Shown piece after piece: positions 1 through 9,000 of a DNA stretch of 64,000 nucleotides (its first letter is position 1; every line of letters starts with the position of its first letter). This DNA comes from Styela clava (taxonomy: Eukaryota). A program made the position numbers. The stretch is taken from contig NC_135262.1 of the NCBI RefSeq assembly GCF_964204865.1, positions 12,214,001 to 12,278,000 of the forward strand. The letters are read 5' to 3'.

Positions 1-3000
1 TTGTGCAATTTTTTATCAACTTGTGTTGCAATTGAACTGTTGTGAATTGTGATTGTATTTTATTATTCACCATGATAAATGAATACACAAATAAGCTTTT
101 ATGAGCTACATCAGTAATTAGCTTTTAAATTTATTTATATCATTCCTATGACCACTTATTATCACACTATAGTGGTTATAAATCTATGGATCATGACACA
201 AATTGGCCTAAAATTAAAAATAGGTGGTTTTGTGAAATAATGATAATGTAATAGATGTTAGTTATACCTTAATTTTTAATTCGAAAAACCTGTCAGTGTA
301 ACTTTTCACTTATTTCATATTTTTATTTTTTTGTAGCTTTTGCCTGGTGACTTCTTTGTATTTAATCTCTATTGTTCAATGTTAGTATAAAACATTCCTA
401 GTGTTATCTTTACTCAATAAGTCAGGGCAATGTAATTTTAGTCATGAATCATGTAGCGAGCATTGACGTCTTTTTCAGGCATATGATAAAGAACAACTTA
501 GTAAGGGTTCTGAACCTTGTAACATTTGAAATATTTTTTTGTTATATACCGTATGCTCAAACATGATATATTGATGCCAGGCCAAAGTTTTTTTTTGACT
601 GGGATGTTTTTTTTAATGAAAACATTCCTTGTTATACTATGTGCTATATGATATTGTTAGCTAGTTGTTCACTGTGATGGTATATATGGGTATACTCGTC
701 GTATATGTAGTGAGCCTGGAGTATTTAATGGGTTAAAATTATATTTGGATGTATCTATTTGCTTTACTTAATATACTTAATAATATCTATGTAGTTTCCA
801 GTTGGACCACAATATCAATGTCAAACAAATAGTTTGATATGATACTATTGGATTGACTAACATTCTACGTTTATTTTAAGAGTTATTAATAAGAGTATTC
901 TGATCATGATGAATTAGAAAAAAACTTATTATTTTACTTTTTATGTATTATATAATTTGAACAGATTTAAAATATATATTGTCAATGCTGTAAAGTTATA
1001 CTATTTACTTGTTACTGGAAATAGTCAAAAAATTTTCTTATATGTTGAAACTTAATGTTTATTGTTTTTTTGTTGTTCATCCCAGATACATTAAAATTAA
1101 ACATCATAAAAATAAACTAGGTTACACATTAAGAAAGCTGTATGAAGTTCTGGAGTAGATGAAGATTATTTATTAAATACACCAAGGGTGGATATTGTTT
1201 TATACTTATTATTCGCAATTCATGGAATTTTAACATTTTATTTATTAATTTCTGTAATAGTTTTATTGATGGGTTCGGTACCTGCTTGTTAGTTCAGTAA
1301 AATCGACTCTAAAAATGGCTTCTGGAGGTCATGATGCAGCAGATAGTATTCCAACACCACGAAGCATGGATGATCCGAAAATCCAAGGACCAAACTCGAA
1401 GAAACCCATAATGAATAGGACTTTTAGTGGAGAACAAGAAACAAGTTCACACGAACATTATGAAAAAAGTAGCCATGGACTTCAAAATAAAGCTGTACCA
1501 TATCAAAGATCTACGAGACCATGCGCTCCACAACCTTCGAACAAAGGTCAAACTCAAATTAAACCAAGACGCGTCGGTGAACGAATCGAAGATGTATTTC
1601 AGGATGAAATAGTTCAGAGATTTCCGAAGATGACTGAGTTTAAAAAGTTCGCTCGATCTTCGTCAGGATTGAGATTATCAGATTATGATGTCGAAAGCAT
1701 AATGGAAGACTATCGCCAGGCAGAGGAACAAAAGCTTCAAATGTTGTATTTATGGAAACAAAAAAAAGGGAAAAATGCAACACCAGATTTGATTCGCAAA
1801 CTAGTTGATGAGTTTTTTGATAGACCAACCTATTATGATCAAGACTGAAGACTTTGGATTAGTATGCCAATCACAAAACTATTTTTTATAATTATGCCAT
1901 ACTTTATTATGTTTAAATTTAAAACAATCTTTGTTCATTTTAACGAATACTTCATCGATAATGGATATCATAATAATATAATAATAATAATATTCAAATA
2001 ATATTTTTGAATACCGGTATACAATATTGAATATATTTATAAAAAAATATTTGGAGTCAATTCCTAGTCAGTAAGTTTGAATTCGGCAATAAAACGACGT
2101 TAAAATCGTATAATTTAATTGATTCCCGTTTTTTACAGTTTCCAGGAAGTAACAAATTTTAAATTTGTACCGTTTTCGATTCTTTTTTTGCATCTCTGCT
2201 CAAAGTGTAATTCGAAATCTCTGTTACATTTTTATGTTAACGTTTCTAATTACATCTTTTTTTTATTATTTTGTGACCAATGATAATTCTATCTATTATT
2301 AAATAATATTTCTCTAAGTTCAATATTACCGGTAATGAGTTGTGGGTCAGGGTAAACTAACAATGATGTAATGTTTGCATAAAAAATGTATCCAAAGATA
2401 TATTCTTTTTTTTTATAGATTTTCTAAAAAATTTTTCTAGAATTGCTATCTTTGCCAATTAATTGGCCATAGTTCTTGAAATAGAATTGCAGATACTGTG
2501 TAATCTTCATCAAGCATGAACTGTTTATGAAATTTGCTACCCAATCCAGCGTTTAAAATGGACCAAAATTTTCTTTGTTTATGTGTTAGTTTAATTTTTT
2601 TTCGAATGGATGTTATATTGTAGCTCTTCCATGTAGCTAGGAATGGCCATAACCCATAACCTTATATTTCATTGATTCACTAACCTGCTCAAATATTGTT
2701 GTCAGACATAAAATACCAAATTGGGTTTTAGATAGAAATTGAATTTGGTGCTTATTATTAAGAATATTTAAAATAAACACTGTTTTTGCTAATTTTTTGT
2801 TACAGTCCAGAACTAAAATAAAGTCAATACTAATCTGATTAGCGCAGTGGTTCTCAAATGGTAAGACGCAGCCCCCCCCCCCAAAAAAAAACACCAAAAA
2901 GGGTGGCGTAGACAATTTCTTGAGGGAAATAAAAACATTTGTTAGATTTGATCTTACCCGTCTTATTTTGAATATTTTCATTCCATCCACATTTTTTCAA

Positions 3001-6000: not shown

Positions 6001-9000
6001 GATTTATGAATCAGGTTTGTATATTACTTTAATCATGGAGAACGTCTTTTTTTCATACATCTAGGGTTATGGATTAAGAAACTTTGTTAGTCAACAATTT
6101 TTGTATGACAGGTTGAGATGGGTATTCCGAATATTCTACAGGCTGTCAAAAAAATCTCGCACGACCCCACGGCAATAACAATTAAAAAATTTTCTCAGTT
6201 TTATTGTAATAGCGATTGCAAGTTTAATAAATAAATTATATTGTATGATAAATAAGAACTATTAATAAACAAAGACGAAGAAATTTTTGATTTTTATTAC
6301 TATAAAATCGGGCAAATTTTTTGGACACCCAGTATATTGATATATTATGCTATGAATTCAAATTACATGTCAATGATTGTGATTTTTCTGCAGCGTAAGA
6401 GAATGGTTTTGGTTTAAAATTGTTTAATTGAAGGCTTCTGAAAATATAATAATATTGATAATAATTGAATTCTATTCTTTCTACGCCTTGTTCTTTGTCA
6501 TTTGAAAATGAATTTGAGTTATTATTCGTTACTGATGGAATTTATACTTAAATTGATTGTAGATTTGTAGCAAATGGATCACAATTGCATGAGATTATTT
6601 GTTGCTTTTAAGAGATTTAAGACAACTTAATCCGCTTTTAATAAGCCTACTCAAGGATGTAAATGAATAAAATCAAAGGGATAATCTCTTGATAGAAGTG
6701 AGAATATATTGTTATAACTTCCATTGTTGAAAGCAAAGAGTAATATTACGATTATGTTATTGGAAAAATGATTGTTCGATCATCGTAGTTTGAATTTGAA
6801 ATATATTTATTGATACTGCTTACTTTAGCTTTACTTACTGCTTACTTTGATCATTTTTGTAACATTCTTTCAGGCTGGTATCGAACCGATGCAAGTTGAT
6901 GTTGAACCACAGGAACATGATATAAATGAACAACAGGATGATGATCAAAACTTCATTGTGGAGAACCCAACTTTGGTTTGTTTTGGTTAATGTCTTTTCC
7001 AATTATTGTGCTTTTGATGAATTCACACACTCATGAGCAAAAAAAATACTCTCAAGTCATGGTCACCACCGATATGGCTGGATTTGCCGCAAAACTGTGA
7101 TTGGGGCTTTGATTTTCTGGAGTGGTCTGAAATTGTAGCGAAGTTCAGCTTTTGAAATTTGATCTTACCTCATTGTGGTTGGTGCATCGGGCTACGCGTC
7201 AGGAATACAATCGCCATCACACATCTGATTATTCTGCTCGGCTTGGGATGTTCGAATCCCATTGGGGAATATAATATGTGGTGGTTCATGTAAGTTGTAA
7301 CTGGTCAGTTTCGGCTTCCACCACCATCAAGTCCATGCATCAGGAACAACCGACAATTATAAATGAATGGACCTATAATTCTTTTTGGTATTATTTTGTT
7401 ATGAAAAAAAAAAATTTTTTTCCACTCGACTACCGGTAATTGTTATGTGTCATAATAGCGAGTCTGAAAGGTTTATGAATCTCATTTTCTGGAGAAAAAT
7501 TACTTGTTGGTGTGTTGTCTTAGCTATATTTGCGTTGCAGTAGGCTCTCTTGCTTTATCGAAGATGTACTAAGGGGCATCATCTTAAACAAGTTGCAACA
7601 CTGTCACAAAATTTTCATATATTTGTACTCTTGAAAAAGATCAATGGCCTACCTTACAAGTGCAATGTTTTCAAACTACTGGTAATTGTTCATGTCTATA
7701 TTTTTAGGACTTGGAAATGTACACAGCAAATTATTCTGGTTTGATGAAGACTGAAAGATTATTATTTATTGCAAAACATGCTCCTTCACTCAAAGTAGAA
7801 GCATACAGGTAGATAGAATGCTCTTTGTTCTATGTATTGTATTATATGGCCCTTCCCCTTTTTCTCAAAAATCGATTGTGCTCCTTACAAGCCGGTGCTA
7901 ATGTATGGATCATGGTAATGCTTCATAATTTCTTGCGTATACCAGTGGTTCCAAACCTGGGGCCCCATGGCCTTCTGCTGGGGCCACAGAGCAGTTGGAG
8001 GGGGCCTTATTAGCCCTTAATAATTCTAGGCGCTGAACTGTTTTTACTTTTCACTATACAAGAAAACTCCCCGTTCTTCCTAGTTTCATTGCTTGATAAG
8101 GTTATTCCACGGGGTGTTTTCACTCTGCCGAGCATGAAAGCCTTCGGAAGGGAGACATGGAGTACCACTGGCCTATACTAAAAAACCAGTAACGGTACTG
8201 TTATTTTTATAAAGAAACCACCGCTTTACGTTTTTTTGAATAAAATACAATAACCATTAAAAATATCGAGTTTTTTTCCTTAATGAGCTTCGTACAGTAA
8301 CTCAATCCTTTGCAAAATCAGCTGCGTCTTATATGTCGGTGCGCCTTACCGTATGTATGGGAAACCCTAATCTAAGCAATTTGTTGACAGTGTGCTTAAT
8401 AACCCAATGACACCTTTAATCAATTGTAAACCATAAACTTGTGCGAATTGGGAAATAATATAGAAAGTGAATTCATTTAAATATGTATTTTTGATAATAA
8501 TATACATTTGTGCTTTTTAATAATATCTGTTTTTTATTTTAGAATGGCTCTAGCTCACGTTCAGAAATCATTTAATGTTGGATTATATCATAACATTCAT
8601 GAAATGCTGGCTCAAGCAATAAGGTATTTGTTAGGCTGAATGTGTAGCTTGCCTTCGCCCAAAACTGCGAAACTTATGAATATCACTGAGCATATGTTTT
8701 TTCTCAATATTCACAAATAAAAATGTTTCGAAAATTGAACATTCGCCTTTTTTGTCCTAAAGCTCACTTTAATAATAGGAAATTGACATCGTTGTCATAT
8801 GAAGAATATAATTCTATGAAATTTATCATATTTTTCAAATGGGTTTAAACCAAGCGTAAAAAAAGAGACCTAAAATAGAGACTGTTTTGTATCAATGTAC
8901 TGTACAGTTTTCTGTAGGTTACGATTCTTTAAATCAAATCGACTGCATTTTATTTCTTTATCCAATTTTATAGACATCGTTGAATAATGACATCAGTTAA

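What the first reader, a model, noticed from the sequence alone, without database searches (positions are those of the whole stretch)
1260..6014. Candidate operon or shared-leader unit: death-domain gene, ATG101, CSN1
Seen: three same-strand CDSs start within 4.7 kb. Each ATG lies 33-69 nt downstream of a polypyrimidine-AG acceptor (ending 1260, 4035, 5913). Between the ATG101 stop (4748) and the CSN1 acceptor there are only 1.16 kb, containing a MITE and no CpG-rich promoter-like patch by eye. The clearest promoter-like non-coding patch is about 2080-2230 (ETS-like ccaggaagt at 2142), next to a strong donor gtaagt at 2071. Established: ascidians have operons resolved by spliced-leader trans-splicing at unpaired acceptors. 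Inference: ATG101 and CSN1, perhaps with the death-domain gene, are co-transcribed, either as an SL-resolved polycistron or as alternative products of one non-coding leader exon, with ATG101 nested in the 5'UTR intron of CSN1. That would couple autophagy initiation to cullin deneddylation.
Basis: partly seen in the sequence, partly recalled or inferred. Interest (0 to 1): 0.7.

Follow-up and report, generated by a model that had tools for sequence, protein, structure and literature searches.

The report
Sea-squirt gene trio, operon unproven
Three ordinary same-strand genes of the sea squirt Styela clava each have a splice acceptor just before the start codon, as most sea-squirt genes do, and the sequence alone cannot show whether any two of them share one transcript.

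Summary
The window is Styela clava (ascidian) DNA. The sequence features are real. A 177-aa death-domain ORF (1315-1848), a single-exon ATG101 (4068-4748) and the first of 13 CSN1 exons (5982-6014) lie on the + strand. Two acceptors beat chance by a weight matrix. The third ends the second-longest AG-free stretch of the strand.

In Ciona, however, about 50-80% of genes are spliced-leader trans-spliced whether or not they sit in operons. Promoters there are rarely CpG islands. So neither argument points to co-transcription.

The GTAAGT at 2071 lies 17 nt before the death-domain gene's first AATAAA, and such a hexamer is expected by chance (P about 0.34). ATG101 and CSN1 lie on different chromosomes in Ciona and Clavelina.

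My best reading is three separate transcription units (0.5). An ATG101-to-CSN1 operon stays credible (about 0.27). A single-exon upstream gene is the commonest Ciona operon layout, and CSN1's CpG-depleted domain starts right after the ATG101 stop.

A three-gene unit or a shared leader is unlikely. Only SL-read, TSS and 3'-end data can decide. Interest is low.

The parts
1061..1177 (+). Acceptor-like site ending 1085, followed by four poly(A) hexamers (1090, 1096, 1111, 1172). Possibly the last exon and 3' end of an unseen upstream gene.
   Evidence: Weight-matrix score 8.2. Hexamer list. The stretch lies in the CpG-depleted domain 6-1452. This is a lead only.
1236..1260 (+). 3' splice acceptor before the death-domain gene
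   Evidence: Score 10.8, chance 0.017 per 70 nt. AG-free zone of 74 nt.
1315..1848 (+). Single-exon CDS of a 177-aa protein with a C-terminal death domain (P0001)
   Evidence: Pfam Death 6.1e-07. In-frame TGA at 1267-1269. One relative of similar size, P0134, 144 aa. 41 relatives of the domain found; 4 of the 10 scanned also carry NACHT.
2071..2076 (+). GTAAGT donor-like hexamer in the context TCA|GTAAGT
   Evidence: 12 copies on the + strand of 64 kb, so P(at least one in the 2187-nt spacer) is about 0.34. None of the 12 CSN1 donors is GTAAGT.
2088..2093 (+). First AATAAA after the death-domain stop, 240 nt downstream. Likely poly(A) signal of that gene.
   Evidence: That it is the signal used is my inference.
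1456..2293 (.). CpG-normal block covering most of the death-domain CDS and its 3' flank.
   Evidence: HMM segmentation. o/e is 0.97 for the exon and 1.76 for 1849-2350. Motif position.
2845..3142 (.). MITE-like element with perfect 14-nt inverted ends
   Evidence: Related copies at 46756-46945 and 59287-59352.
3826..4759 (.). CpG-normal block running from 210 nt upstream of the ATG101 acceptor to the ATG101 stop. Candidate ATG101 promoter-proximal zone.
   Evidence: o/e is 1.10 for 3751-4067 and 1.37 for the CDS.
4011..4035 (+). 3' splice acceptor before ATG101
   Evidence: Score 9.4, chance 0.024. AG-free zone of 93 nt.
4068..4748 (+). ATG101, with the whole 226-aa CDS in one exon (P0002)
   Evidence: Pfam PF07855 5.9e-38. 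100% query coverage against ATG101 of Ciona and others. In-frame TAA at 4062.
4972..4977 (+). ATTAAA 224 nt after the ATG101 stop. A second hexamer, AATAAA, sits at 5555 inside the MITE.
   Evidence: Which one is used, if either, is unknown.
5322..5675 (.). MITE-like element, 354 bp
   Evidence: Terminal inverted repeats match at 19 of 22. No other copy in the window.
5753..5913 (+). 161-nt AG-free zone ending at the CSN1 acceptor AG (5912-5913). It holds a 20-nt pure pyrimidine run (5758-5777) and TATAAATA at 5819-5826.
   Evidence: Second longest of 3083 AG gaps; one of 6 pyrimidine runs of 15 nt or more. TATAAATA occurs 11 times on the + strand.
5982..17449 (+). CSN1 (GPS1): 13 exons, 12 GT-AG introns, 480 aa. 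Exon 1 is 5982-6014.
   Evidence: The public S. clava protein P0122 was laid on the window. Exons searched singly gave RPN7, PCI and CSN1_C hits.
4775..17960 (.). One unbroken CpG-depleted domain, from just after the ATG101 stop to about 500 nt past the CSN1 stop
   Evidence: HMM at switch rate 1/2000. o/e is 0.37 for 4749-5981, 0.63 for CSN1 exons and 0.65 for its introns.

Best explanation
These are three separate genes of Styela clava lying head to tail. They are a small death-domain-only protein (its domain is related to those of death-domain-NACHT receptors), ATG101 and CSN1.

Each pre-mRNA most likely starts at its own promoter, some tens to hundreds of bases upstream of the acceptor. 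The 5' piece (the outron) is then replaced by the spliced leader at 1260, 4035 and 5913, or removed as a private 5'UTR intron. Each upstream gene most likely ends at its own poly(A) site.

Shown: the genes, the acceptors, the spacing and the composition. Inferred: SL use, the promoters and the 3' ends.
For: (1) The organism is an ascidian. A CSN1 exon is 100% identical to S. clava XP_039255514.1, and both genes lie on a 20,344,166-bp contig. Trans-splicing has been described in Botryllus (passages of PMC3691228), which I recall, from no call, to be in the same family (Styelidae).

(2) All three acceptors look real. Such acceptors are the norm for monocistronic Ciona genes. About 50% of genes are trans-spliced (PMC1488885). 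9850 of 12397 non-operonic genes have trans-splice acceptor sites (PMC11155486).

(3) The spacers can hold a promoter plus an outron. Ciona outrons average 438 bp with a peak near 100 bp (PMC4691747), or have a median of 458 bp (PMC11155486).

(4) Canonical hexamers follow each stop: AATAAA at +240 after the death-domain stop, ATTAAA at +224 and AATAAA at +807 after the ATG101 stop. If used, they leave about 1.9 kb and 0.34-0.92 kb before the next acceptor. That is the range of Ciona SL-receiving neighbours that are not in operons (median 2287 bp), not of operons (median 1 bp, cut-off 68-84 bp; PMC7986045, section 26).

(5) Separate CpG-normal blocks sit at the death-domain gene (1456-2293) and at ATG101 (3826-4759). 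A weak one lies in CSN1 intron 1 (6136-6326, posterior 0.54).

(6) The 300 nt before each acceptor are U-rich, 0.40-0.43, which is the 90th percentile or above. Ciona outrons are U-rich too.

(7) ATG101 and CSN1 are on different contigs in Ciona intestinalis (9,879,317 against 12,273,785 bp) and in Clavelina (24,617,235 at most against 25,070,715 bp).
Against: No promoter, TSS or poly(A) site is demonstrated; all are inferred from motifs that are common in 33% GC DNA. AATAAA/ATTAAA occur about 2.9 times per kb and TATAAA 82 times on the + strand.

The 306 nt before the CSN1 ATG hold 1 CpG against 6.0 expected. The CpG-depleted domain of CSN1 also runs unbroken from 4775. That is not what a typical CpG-rich Ciona promoter looks like (PMC3333190). 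However, 2415 of 8435 Ciona '500 bp upstream' regions are methylated (PMC4776710).

A single-exon gene directly upstream of a multi-exon gene is the majority layout of Ciona operons (790 operons, 60%; PMC2760879, section 10). In 16 of 18 Ciona operons the upstream cistron ends at the acceptor without a nearby AATAAA (PMC1488885). So a 1165-nt ATG101 3'UTR ending at 5913 cannot be excluded.
Confidence: 0.5

Rival explanations
1. ATG101 and CSN1 form a Ciona-type two-gene operon. One promoter near 3.8-4.0 kb drives both genes. The ATG101 mRNA has a 3'UTR of about 1.17 kb that ends at the AG of 5913, and CSN1 is released by SL trans-splicing there.
For: Same strand, with a single-exon gene upstream of a multi-exon gene. 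This is the layout of 60% of Ciona operons, while only 15% of non-operon genes are single-exon (PMC2760879, section 10).

The acceptor at 5913 looks real (161-nt AG-free zone).

The only clear CpG-normal block upstream of CSN1 is the one at ATG101 (3826-4759). Depletion then runs from 4775 through CSN1. This fits one transcription unit with an unmethylated 5' end.

The spacer is strongly T-skewed on the + strand (-0.18, against -0.08 in CSN1 introns).

The implied ATG101 mRNA is 32+681+1165 = 1878 nt. This is close to the mean Ciona operon mRNA of 1789 nt.

Ciona operon upstream cistrons usually lack AATAAA near their end (16 of 18).
Against: Nothing shows that the ATG101 3' end reaches 5913, and two canonical hexamers lie earlier.

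Ciona operons are defined by under 100 bp, mostly 0-1 bp, between the poly(A) site and the acceptor. Only 44 of 1172 have any spacer. This feature is untested here.

The pair is not adjacent in Ciona or Clavelina.

There is a TATAAATA 87-94 nt before the acceptor.

The held library has no paper on operons or the spliced leader in Styela.

CpG depletion upstream of a 5' end is seen in 29% of Ciona genes.
Confidence: 0.27
2. All three genes (death-domain gene, ATG101, CSN1) are cistrons of one SL-resolved polycistron.
For: They share a strand. All three have acceptors before the ATG. The first two are single-exon. The spacer 2312-3821 is CpG-depleted.
Against: It needs a 2187-nt 3'UTR on a 534-nt CDS, with an AATAAA only 240 nt after the stop.

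The death-domain gene's closest domain relatives include NACHT-type receptors (4 of the 10 scanned). I take this (inference) to point to an inducible gene rather than a housekeeping partner of ATG101 and CSN1.

Operons of three or more genes are the minority in Ciona (231 of 1310).

Separate CpG-normal blocks mark the two small genes.
Confidence: 0.04
3. A non-coding leader exon ending at 2070 is cis-spliced alternatively to 4036 or 5914, so that ATG101 is nested in a 5'UTR intron of CSN1.
For: GTAAGT sits at 2071. The CpG o/e peak at 1901-2250 is the highest in the window. An ETS-like CCAGGAAGT sits at 2142. The stretches 2312-3821 and 4775-5981 are CpG-depleted like introns.
Against: GTAAGT occurs 12 times on the + strand, giving P about 0.34 for the spacer. 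Its exon side (TCA) is poor.

It lies 222 nt after the death-domain stop and 17 nt before that gene's first AATAAA, so it is probably inside that 3'UTR.

Most of the CpG peak and the ETS motif lie downstream of the proposed donor, so they cannot be the promoter of an exon that ends at 2070.

The peak is 13 CpG against 7.4 expected and is continuous with the CpG-normal death-domain exon.

The three annotated CSN1 isoforms share one N-terminus and differ only in the last exon.
Confidence: 0.04
4. The operon-like junction in this region is a different one. The death-domain gene would be the downstream cistron of an unseen + strand gene that ends just left of 1260. This reading is compatible with any of the others.
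For: There is a strong acceptor-like site ending 1085 (score 8.2), followed by four poly(A) hexamers at 1090-1177. These lie 83-170 nt before the acceptor at 1260. The CpG-depleted domain 6-1452 runs into the death-domain exon.
Against: No coding exon is recognisable in 1-1260, and the gene body would lie outside the window. Hexamers are frequent in this AT-rich DNA.
Confidence: 0.15

Closest known systems
Ciona intestinalis SL-resolved operons (KH set, 1310 operons; example DTL-URM1-CHERP)
   Same: Same-strand neighbours. The downstream gene has an acceptor before its ATG. The upstream gene is single-exon, as in 60% of Ciona operons (PMC2760879).
   Different: Ciona operons are recognised by abutting mRNA ends: under 100 bp by definition, median 1 bp, and only 44 of 1172 with any spacer. 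Here only stop-to-acceptor distances are known (2187 and 1165 nt). Canonical poly(A) hexamers lie well before the acceptors.
Monocistronic SL trans-spliced Ciona genes with outrons (for example troponin I, Hsp beta-1)
   Same: An unpaired acceptor a few tens of nt before the ATG. A U-rich upstream stretch. Spacers large enough for an outron of about 100-500 nt plus a promoter.
   Different: No TSS or SL data exist here for Styela, and the stretch before CSN1 is unusually CpG-poor.
Botryllus schlosseri fuhc-sec / fuhc-tm pair
   Same: Two same-strand genes, in a species I recall (from no call) to be a styelid, that were suspected of being an operon because of a featureless spacer (PMC3691228).
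   Different: That spacer is 227 bp. Spanning transcripts were found but were rare and no SL was detected. The authors favoured read-through.
Caenorhabditis elegans SL1-type operons
   Same: Operons without intercistronic DNA, resolved by the general SL. The Ciona papers name them as the nearest analogue.
   Different: They occur in a nematode, and their upstream cistrons keep AATAAA. I did not test this comparison here.

Membership tests
Ciona-type SL-resolved operon | Adjacent genes on the same strand | tested here: met
   The death-domain gene, ATG101 and CSN1 are all on the + strand with no other ORF-bearing gene between them.
Ciona-type SL-resolved operon | The downstream cistron starts at a trans-splice acceptor | tested here: inconclusive
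   Acceptor-like sites are present and beat chance. SL addition itself cannot be seen in DNA.
Ciona-type SL-resolved operon | The upstream mRNA 3' end abuts the downstream acceptor (under 100 bp, usually 0-1 bp) | not testable with these tools
   This needs 3'-end reads. Only upper bounds are known, 2187 and 1165 nt from stop to acceptor. The nearest upstream AATAAA/ATTAAA lie 1107 nt before 4035 and 358 nt before 5913.
Ciona-type SL-resolved operon | One promoter and a polycistronic precursor | not testable with these tools
   No read or TSS data were available. The CpG profile is ambiguous.
Monocistronic SL trans-spliced gene | Acceptor before the ATG with no paired donor required, plus its own TSS within about 50-2000 nt upstream | tested here: inconclusive
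   Acceptors are present and the spacers are 1165-2187 nt. Candidate promoter features are motifs or CpG blocks only.
Shared non-coding leader exon / nested gene | A donor that beats chance, downstream of a promoter and outside the neighbouring transcript | tested here: not met
   GTAAGT occurs 12 times per strand (P about 0.34), in the context TCA|GT. It lies 17 nt before the death-domain gene's AATAAA. Most of the CpG peak and the ETS motif lie downstream of it.
ATG101 (PF07855) | Full-length match to the family profile | tested here: met
   5.9e-38, profile positions 1-157 of 158. 221 relatives with E at most 0.001 among 837 candidates.
COP9 signalosome subunit 1 | RPN7 + PCI + CSN1_C domains | tested here: met
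   Exons were searched singly, and 4 of 8 exon translations gave hits: RPN7 4.5e-14, RPN7 0.0025 (below cut-off), PCI 2e-10, CSN1_C 3.1e-13. The exons are identical to S. clava CSN1-like X1.
Death domain (PF00531) | Profile match above the gathering score | tested here: met
   29.9 bits against 22.6. One PDB sequence hit, the Fas death domain 3oq9_A, E 0.0013. The fold model was too poor to use (pLDDT 49.7).

The most novel reading that the evidence does not exclude
An intronless ATG101 sits in what used to be the outron of CSN1. In the Styela lineage it is now the 5' cistron of a young two-gene operon, with a 3'UTR of about 1.2 kb ending at the CSN1 trans-splice acceptor. The pair is unlinked in Ciona and Clavelina. 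This would be a dated example of how ascidian operons with single-exon 5' genes arise, and a first documented operon in a stolidobranch.
Probability: 0.25. Interest if true: 0.35.

Novelty: already known. Interest (0 to 1): 0.2.

Why it matters
If the best reading holds, this is routine ascidian gene organisation and needs no follow-up beyond annotation.

If the ATG101-CSN1 operon were real, it would add a lineage-specific operon to a group (stolidobranch ascidians) for which I found no operon or spliced-leader study of Styela in the held library. It would also illustrate operon birth by arrival of a single-exon gene upstream of a trans-spliced gene.

It would not by itself show a regulatory link between autophagy and cullin deneddylation. 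Ciona operon partners were reported as neither tightly coordinated nor markedly mutually exclusive (PMC1488885). The pairing is also absent from two other ascidians.

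Tried and rejected
- The repeat finder with default seeds missed both MITE-like elements. A local alignment of the ends found them.
- The weight matrix from only 12 acceptors is overfitted: leave-one-out scores run from -3.5 to 16.4. 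It gave no signal for 5913, so I added the AG-free-zone measure.
- The ESM Atlas gave no usable lead for the death-domain protein (best 0.84; a death-domain cluster at 0.81, rank 4).
- The AlphaFold model of P0001, from a two-sequence alignment, was poor (pLDDT 49.7, pTM 0.28). I ran no fold search on it.
- Rfam and tRNA scans of the whole window found nothing, so the CpG patch at 1.9-2.3 kb is not a known RNA gene.
- A motif search for the 5' exon of the oxoprolinase gene found nothing. I therefore made no baseline of first-exon acceptors from the other genes of the window.
- I considered CpG depletion of the spacers as proof of transcription and rejected it as proof. 2415 of 8435 Ciona upstream regions are methylated, and counts per segment are small.
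- PMC2860165 is not held. The text search of PMC3827831 failed on a term format and I did not repeat it, so only its listing was seen.

Full report
WHAT THE WINDOW IS. The window has 29-39% GC in 2-kb windows and no N. One CSN1 exon, searched on its own, is 100% identical to 'COP9 signalosome complex subunit 1-like isoform X1 [Styela clava]' (XP_039255514.1, P0122). That protein is encoded on a 20,344,166-bp contig. The ATG101 ORF of the window is also in the collection, on a contig of the same length. Its best named relatives are Ciona savignyi (61%), C. intestinalis (57%) and Clavelina (53%). So this is a chromosome-scale contig of the ascidian Styela clava, which I recall (from no call) to be a stolidobranch.

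THE GENES. 1315-1848 encodes 177 aa with a C-terminal death domain (Pfam 6.1e-07, above the cut-off). An in-frame TGA at 1267-1269 fixes the start. The exact ORF is not in the protein collection. One relative of similar build exists (P0134, 144 aa, 63% over the domain half). An exhaustive search found 41 relatives of the domain at E of 0.001 or less. I scanned 10 of these 41 with Pfam: all 10 carry Death and 4 also carry NACHT.

4068-4748 is a complete ATG101 in one exon (5.9e-38). CSN1 has 13 exons from 5982 to 17449 and 12 GT-AG introns, summing to 1443 nt. I searched its exons one by one and made no joined coding sequence. The exon map comes from laying the public protein on the window. Exon 1 (11 aa) has the conserved M-x-L...N start of other ascidian CSN1 proteins. 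The three annotated isoforms differ only in the last exon.

The one correction is that the donor context is TCA|GTAAGT, not a consensus exon end.

I built a weight matrix from the 12 CSN1 acceptors. It scores 1260 at 10.8 and 4035 at 9.4. Only 11 non-exonic, non-training sites in 1-23 kb reach 8, these two included. That gives 0.017 and 0.024 for a site that good in 70 nt. The site at 5913 scores -1.2, which is no better than chance (0.54).

An independent measure rescues it. Real acceptors are preceded by AG-free zones (17-109 nt for the 12 true ones, against a strand median of 14). The zones before 1260, 4035 and 5913 are 74, 93 and 161 nt. The last is second longest of 3083 and starts at one of only six pyrimidine runs of 15 nt or more. 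I take all three as real 3' splice sites.

The MITE at 5322-5675 is confirmed. So is the low CpG of 4749-5981 (o/e 0.37) and the CpG o/e peak around 1.9-2.3 kb.

WHAT ACCEPTORS MEAN IN AN ASCIDIAN. From passages I read:
- About half of Ciona genes are SL trans-spliced (PMC1488885).
- With deeper data, 9850 of 12397 non-operonic genes have trans-splice acceptor sites. Trans-splicing takes the first functional acceptor, with or without an upstream donor (PMC11155486).
- Outrons average 438 bp with a peak near 100 bp (PMC4691747).
- Trans-splicing is said to have been described in Botryllus (PMC3691228), which I recall to be in the same family as Styela.
- I found no paper on the spliced leader or operons of Styela: 0 papers for 'Styela clava' with 'spliced leader', and one unrelated paper for Styela, operon and trans-splic.

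An acceptor before the ATG is therefore expected for most genes and says nothing about operons.

Likewise, only 3.5% (223 of 6313) of Ciona promoters meet CpG-island criteria (PMC3333190). A missing CpG-rich patch does not mean a missing promoter.

THE OPERON TEST. Ciona operons are recognised by abutting transcripts. They are defined by under 100 bp and have a median of 1 bp. Only 44 of 1172 have any spacer, whereas SL-receiving neighbours outside operons lie a median 2287 bp apart (PMC2760879; PMC7986045, section 26).

Here I can measure only stop-to-acceptor distances: 2187 nt (death-domain gene to ATG101) and 1165 nt (ATG101 to CSN1). Canonical hexamers lie 240 nt after the first stop, and 224 and 807 nt after the second. 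If they are used, the gaps are about 1.9 kb and 0.34-0.92 kb, which is the monocistronic range.

This is not decisive, for three reasons:
- 16 of 18 Ciona operon upstream cistrons lack AATAAA near their end, and that end is the acceptor itself.
- An ATG101 mRNA of 32+681+1165 = 1878 nt would be of ordinary size, since the mean operon mRNA is 1789 nt.
- In 790 (60%) of Ciona operons the 5'-most gene is single-exon, against 15% of non-operon genes. ATG101 before CSN1 has that layout.

CpG AND SKEW. The window is a mosaic. CSN1 (o/e 0.63 in exons, 0.65 in introns) and 40-62 kb (0.60) are depleted, while 18-40 kb is not (1.1-1.2). A two-state HMM gives depleted 6-1452, normal 1456-2293, depleted 2312-3821, normal 3826-4759 and depleted 4775-17960.

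The CSN1 domain thus starts right after the ATG101 stop, 1.2 kb before the CSN1 ATG. The 306 nt before that ATG hold 1 CpG against 6.0 expected. If depletion marks germline gene-body methylation, as in Ciona (passages of PMC4776710), this fits transcription entering CSN1 from upstream. However, 2415 of 8435 Ciona genes have a methylated 500 bp upstream. A weak normal blip also lies in intron 1 (6136-6326, posterior 0.54).

The spacers are T-skewed on the + strand (-0.18 to -0.26) and U-rich. That suits a 3'UTR, an outron or an operon spacer alike.

SYNTENY. I could not fetch tunicate DNA. As a proxy I used the contig lengths attached to proteins:
- C. intestinalis: ATG101 on 9,879,317 bp, CSN1 on 12,273,785 bp.
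- Clavelina: ATG101 on at most 24,617,235 bp, CSN1 on 25,070,715 bp.

The pair is therefore unlinked in 2 of 2 other ascidians that could be checked. The adjacency is lineage-specific, which speaks against an old functional coupling but not against a young operon.

THE SHARED LEADER. GTAAGT occurs 12 times on the + strand (P about 0.34 for the spacer). It has a poor exon side and sits 17 nt before the death-domain gene's first AATAAA. Most of the CpG peak and the ETS-like site lie downstream of it. The peak is 13 CpG against 7.4 expected and continues the CpG-normal death-domain exon. I see no support for this variant.

WEIGHING. This part is my inference, using Ciona figures as a stand-in. 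About 5-10% of genes are operon downstream cistrons, which roughly doubles once a same-strand upstream neighbour is given. A single-exon upstream gene multiplies the odds by about 4. The long stop-to-acceptor distance about halves them. The acceptor adds little. The CpG picture adds perhaps 1.5-fold. Discounting for the unknown state of operons in Styela, I put the readings at:
- ATG101-CSN1 operon: about 0.27.
- Three independent units: 0.5.
- Three-gene unit: 0.04.
- Shared leader: 0.04.

A separate lead is that an acceptor-like site at 1085 and four poly(A) hexamers at 1090-1177 suggest an unseen gene ending 83-170 nt before the death-domain acceptor.

LIMITS. I had no reads, no TSS data and no tunicate genomic DNA. 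Paper supplements, which hold the Ciona operon lists, were closed.

VERDICT. The interpretation cannot be decided from sequence. The kind of thing is already known, and interest is low.

Noticed in passing
window 1061-1177: An acceptor-like site ending 1085 (score 8.2) is followed by ATTAAA, ATTAAA, AATAAA and ATTAAA at 1090-1177. It looks like the last exon and 3' end of a + strand gene lying left of the window. That gene would end 83-170 nt before the death-domain gene's acceptor, which is an operon-like spacing.
   Followed up: partly
window 1315-1848: The death-domain protein has no other domain. Its exact ORF is not in the protein collection. Among the closest relatives of its domain are death domains of NACHT (NLR-like) proteins: 4 of the 10 scanned, out of 41 found. 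It could be a small adaptor or decoy of such receptors.
   Followed up: partly
whole window: There is sharp mosaic CpG depletion. Depleted domains are 4775-17960 (CSN1) and about 39.8-62.0 kb (the oxoprolinase region), at o/e about 0.6. The stretch 18-39.8 kb is mostly at about 1.1-1.2, with short depleted stretches. This looks like the gene-body methylation mosaic described for Ciona.
   Followed up: partly
window 2845-3142, 46756-46945, 59287-59352, 7937-8178: A family of MITE-like elements with ends of the type CAGTGGTTC. Two related copies or fragments lie elsewhere in the window, and a similar-ended element lies in CSN1 intron 3.
   Followed up: partly
window 15919-15957, 16559-16606, 17399-17449: Three alternative last coding exons of CSN1 match the annotated isoforms X3, X2 and X1, giving three different C-terminal tails.
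   Followed up: yes
window about 43000-57500, minus strand: Exons of a 5-oxoprolinase-type gene (Hydantoinase_A and Hydantoinase_B hits). I did not find its 5' exons.
   Followed up: partly
window about 24100-35300, minus strand: Exons with LDL-receptor class A repeats and a rhodopsin-type 7TM segment, which suggests an LDLa-containing G-protein-coupled receptor. The region is CpG-normal.
   Followed up: no
window 62015-63632, minus strand: Long ORFs of 413 and 136 aa, the second with a weak BED zinc-finger hit (E 0.0011, below cut-off). The region is CpG-normal, unlike its flanks. It is probably a domesticated or recent transposase-like insertion.
   Followed up: no
window 1863-2056: The longest AG-free stretch of the + strand (194 nt) lies in the roughly 20% GC tract just after the death-domain stop. 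Low G content probably explains it.
   Followed up: no
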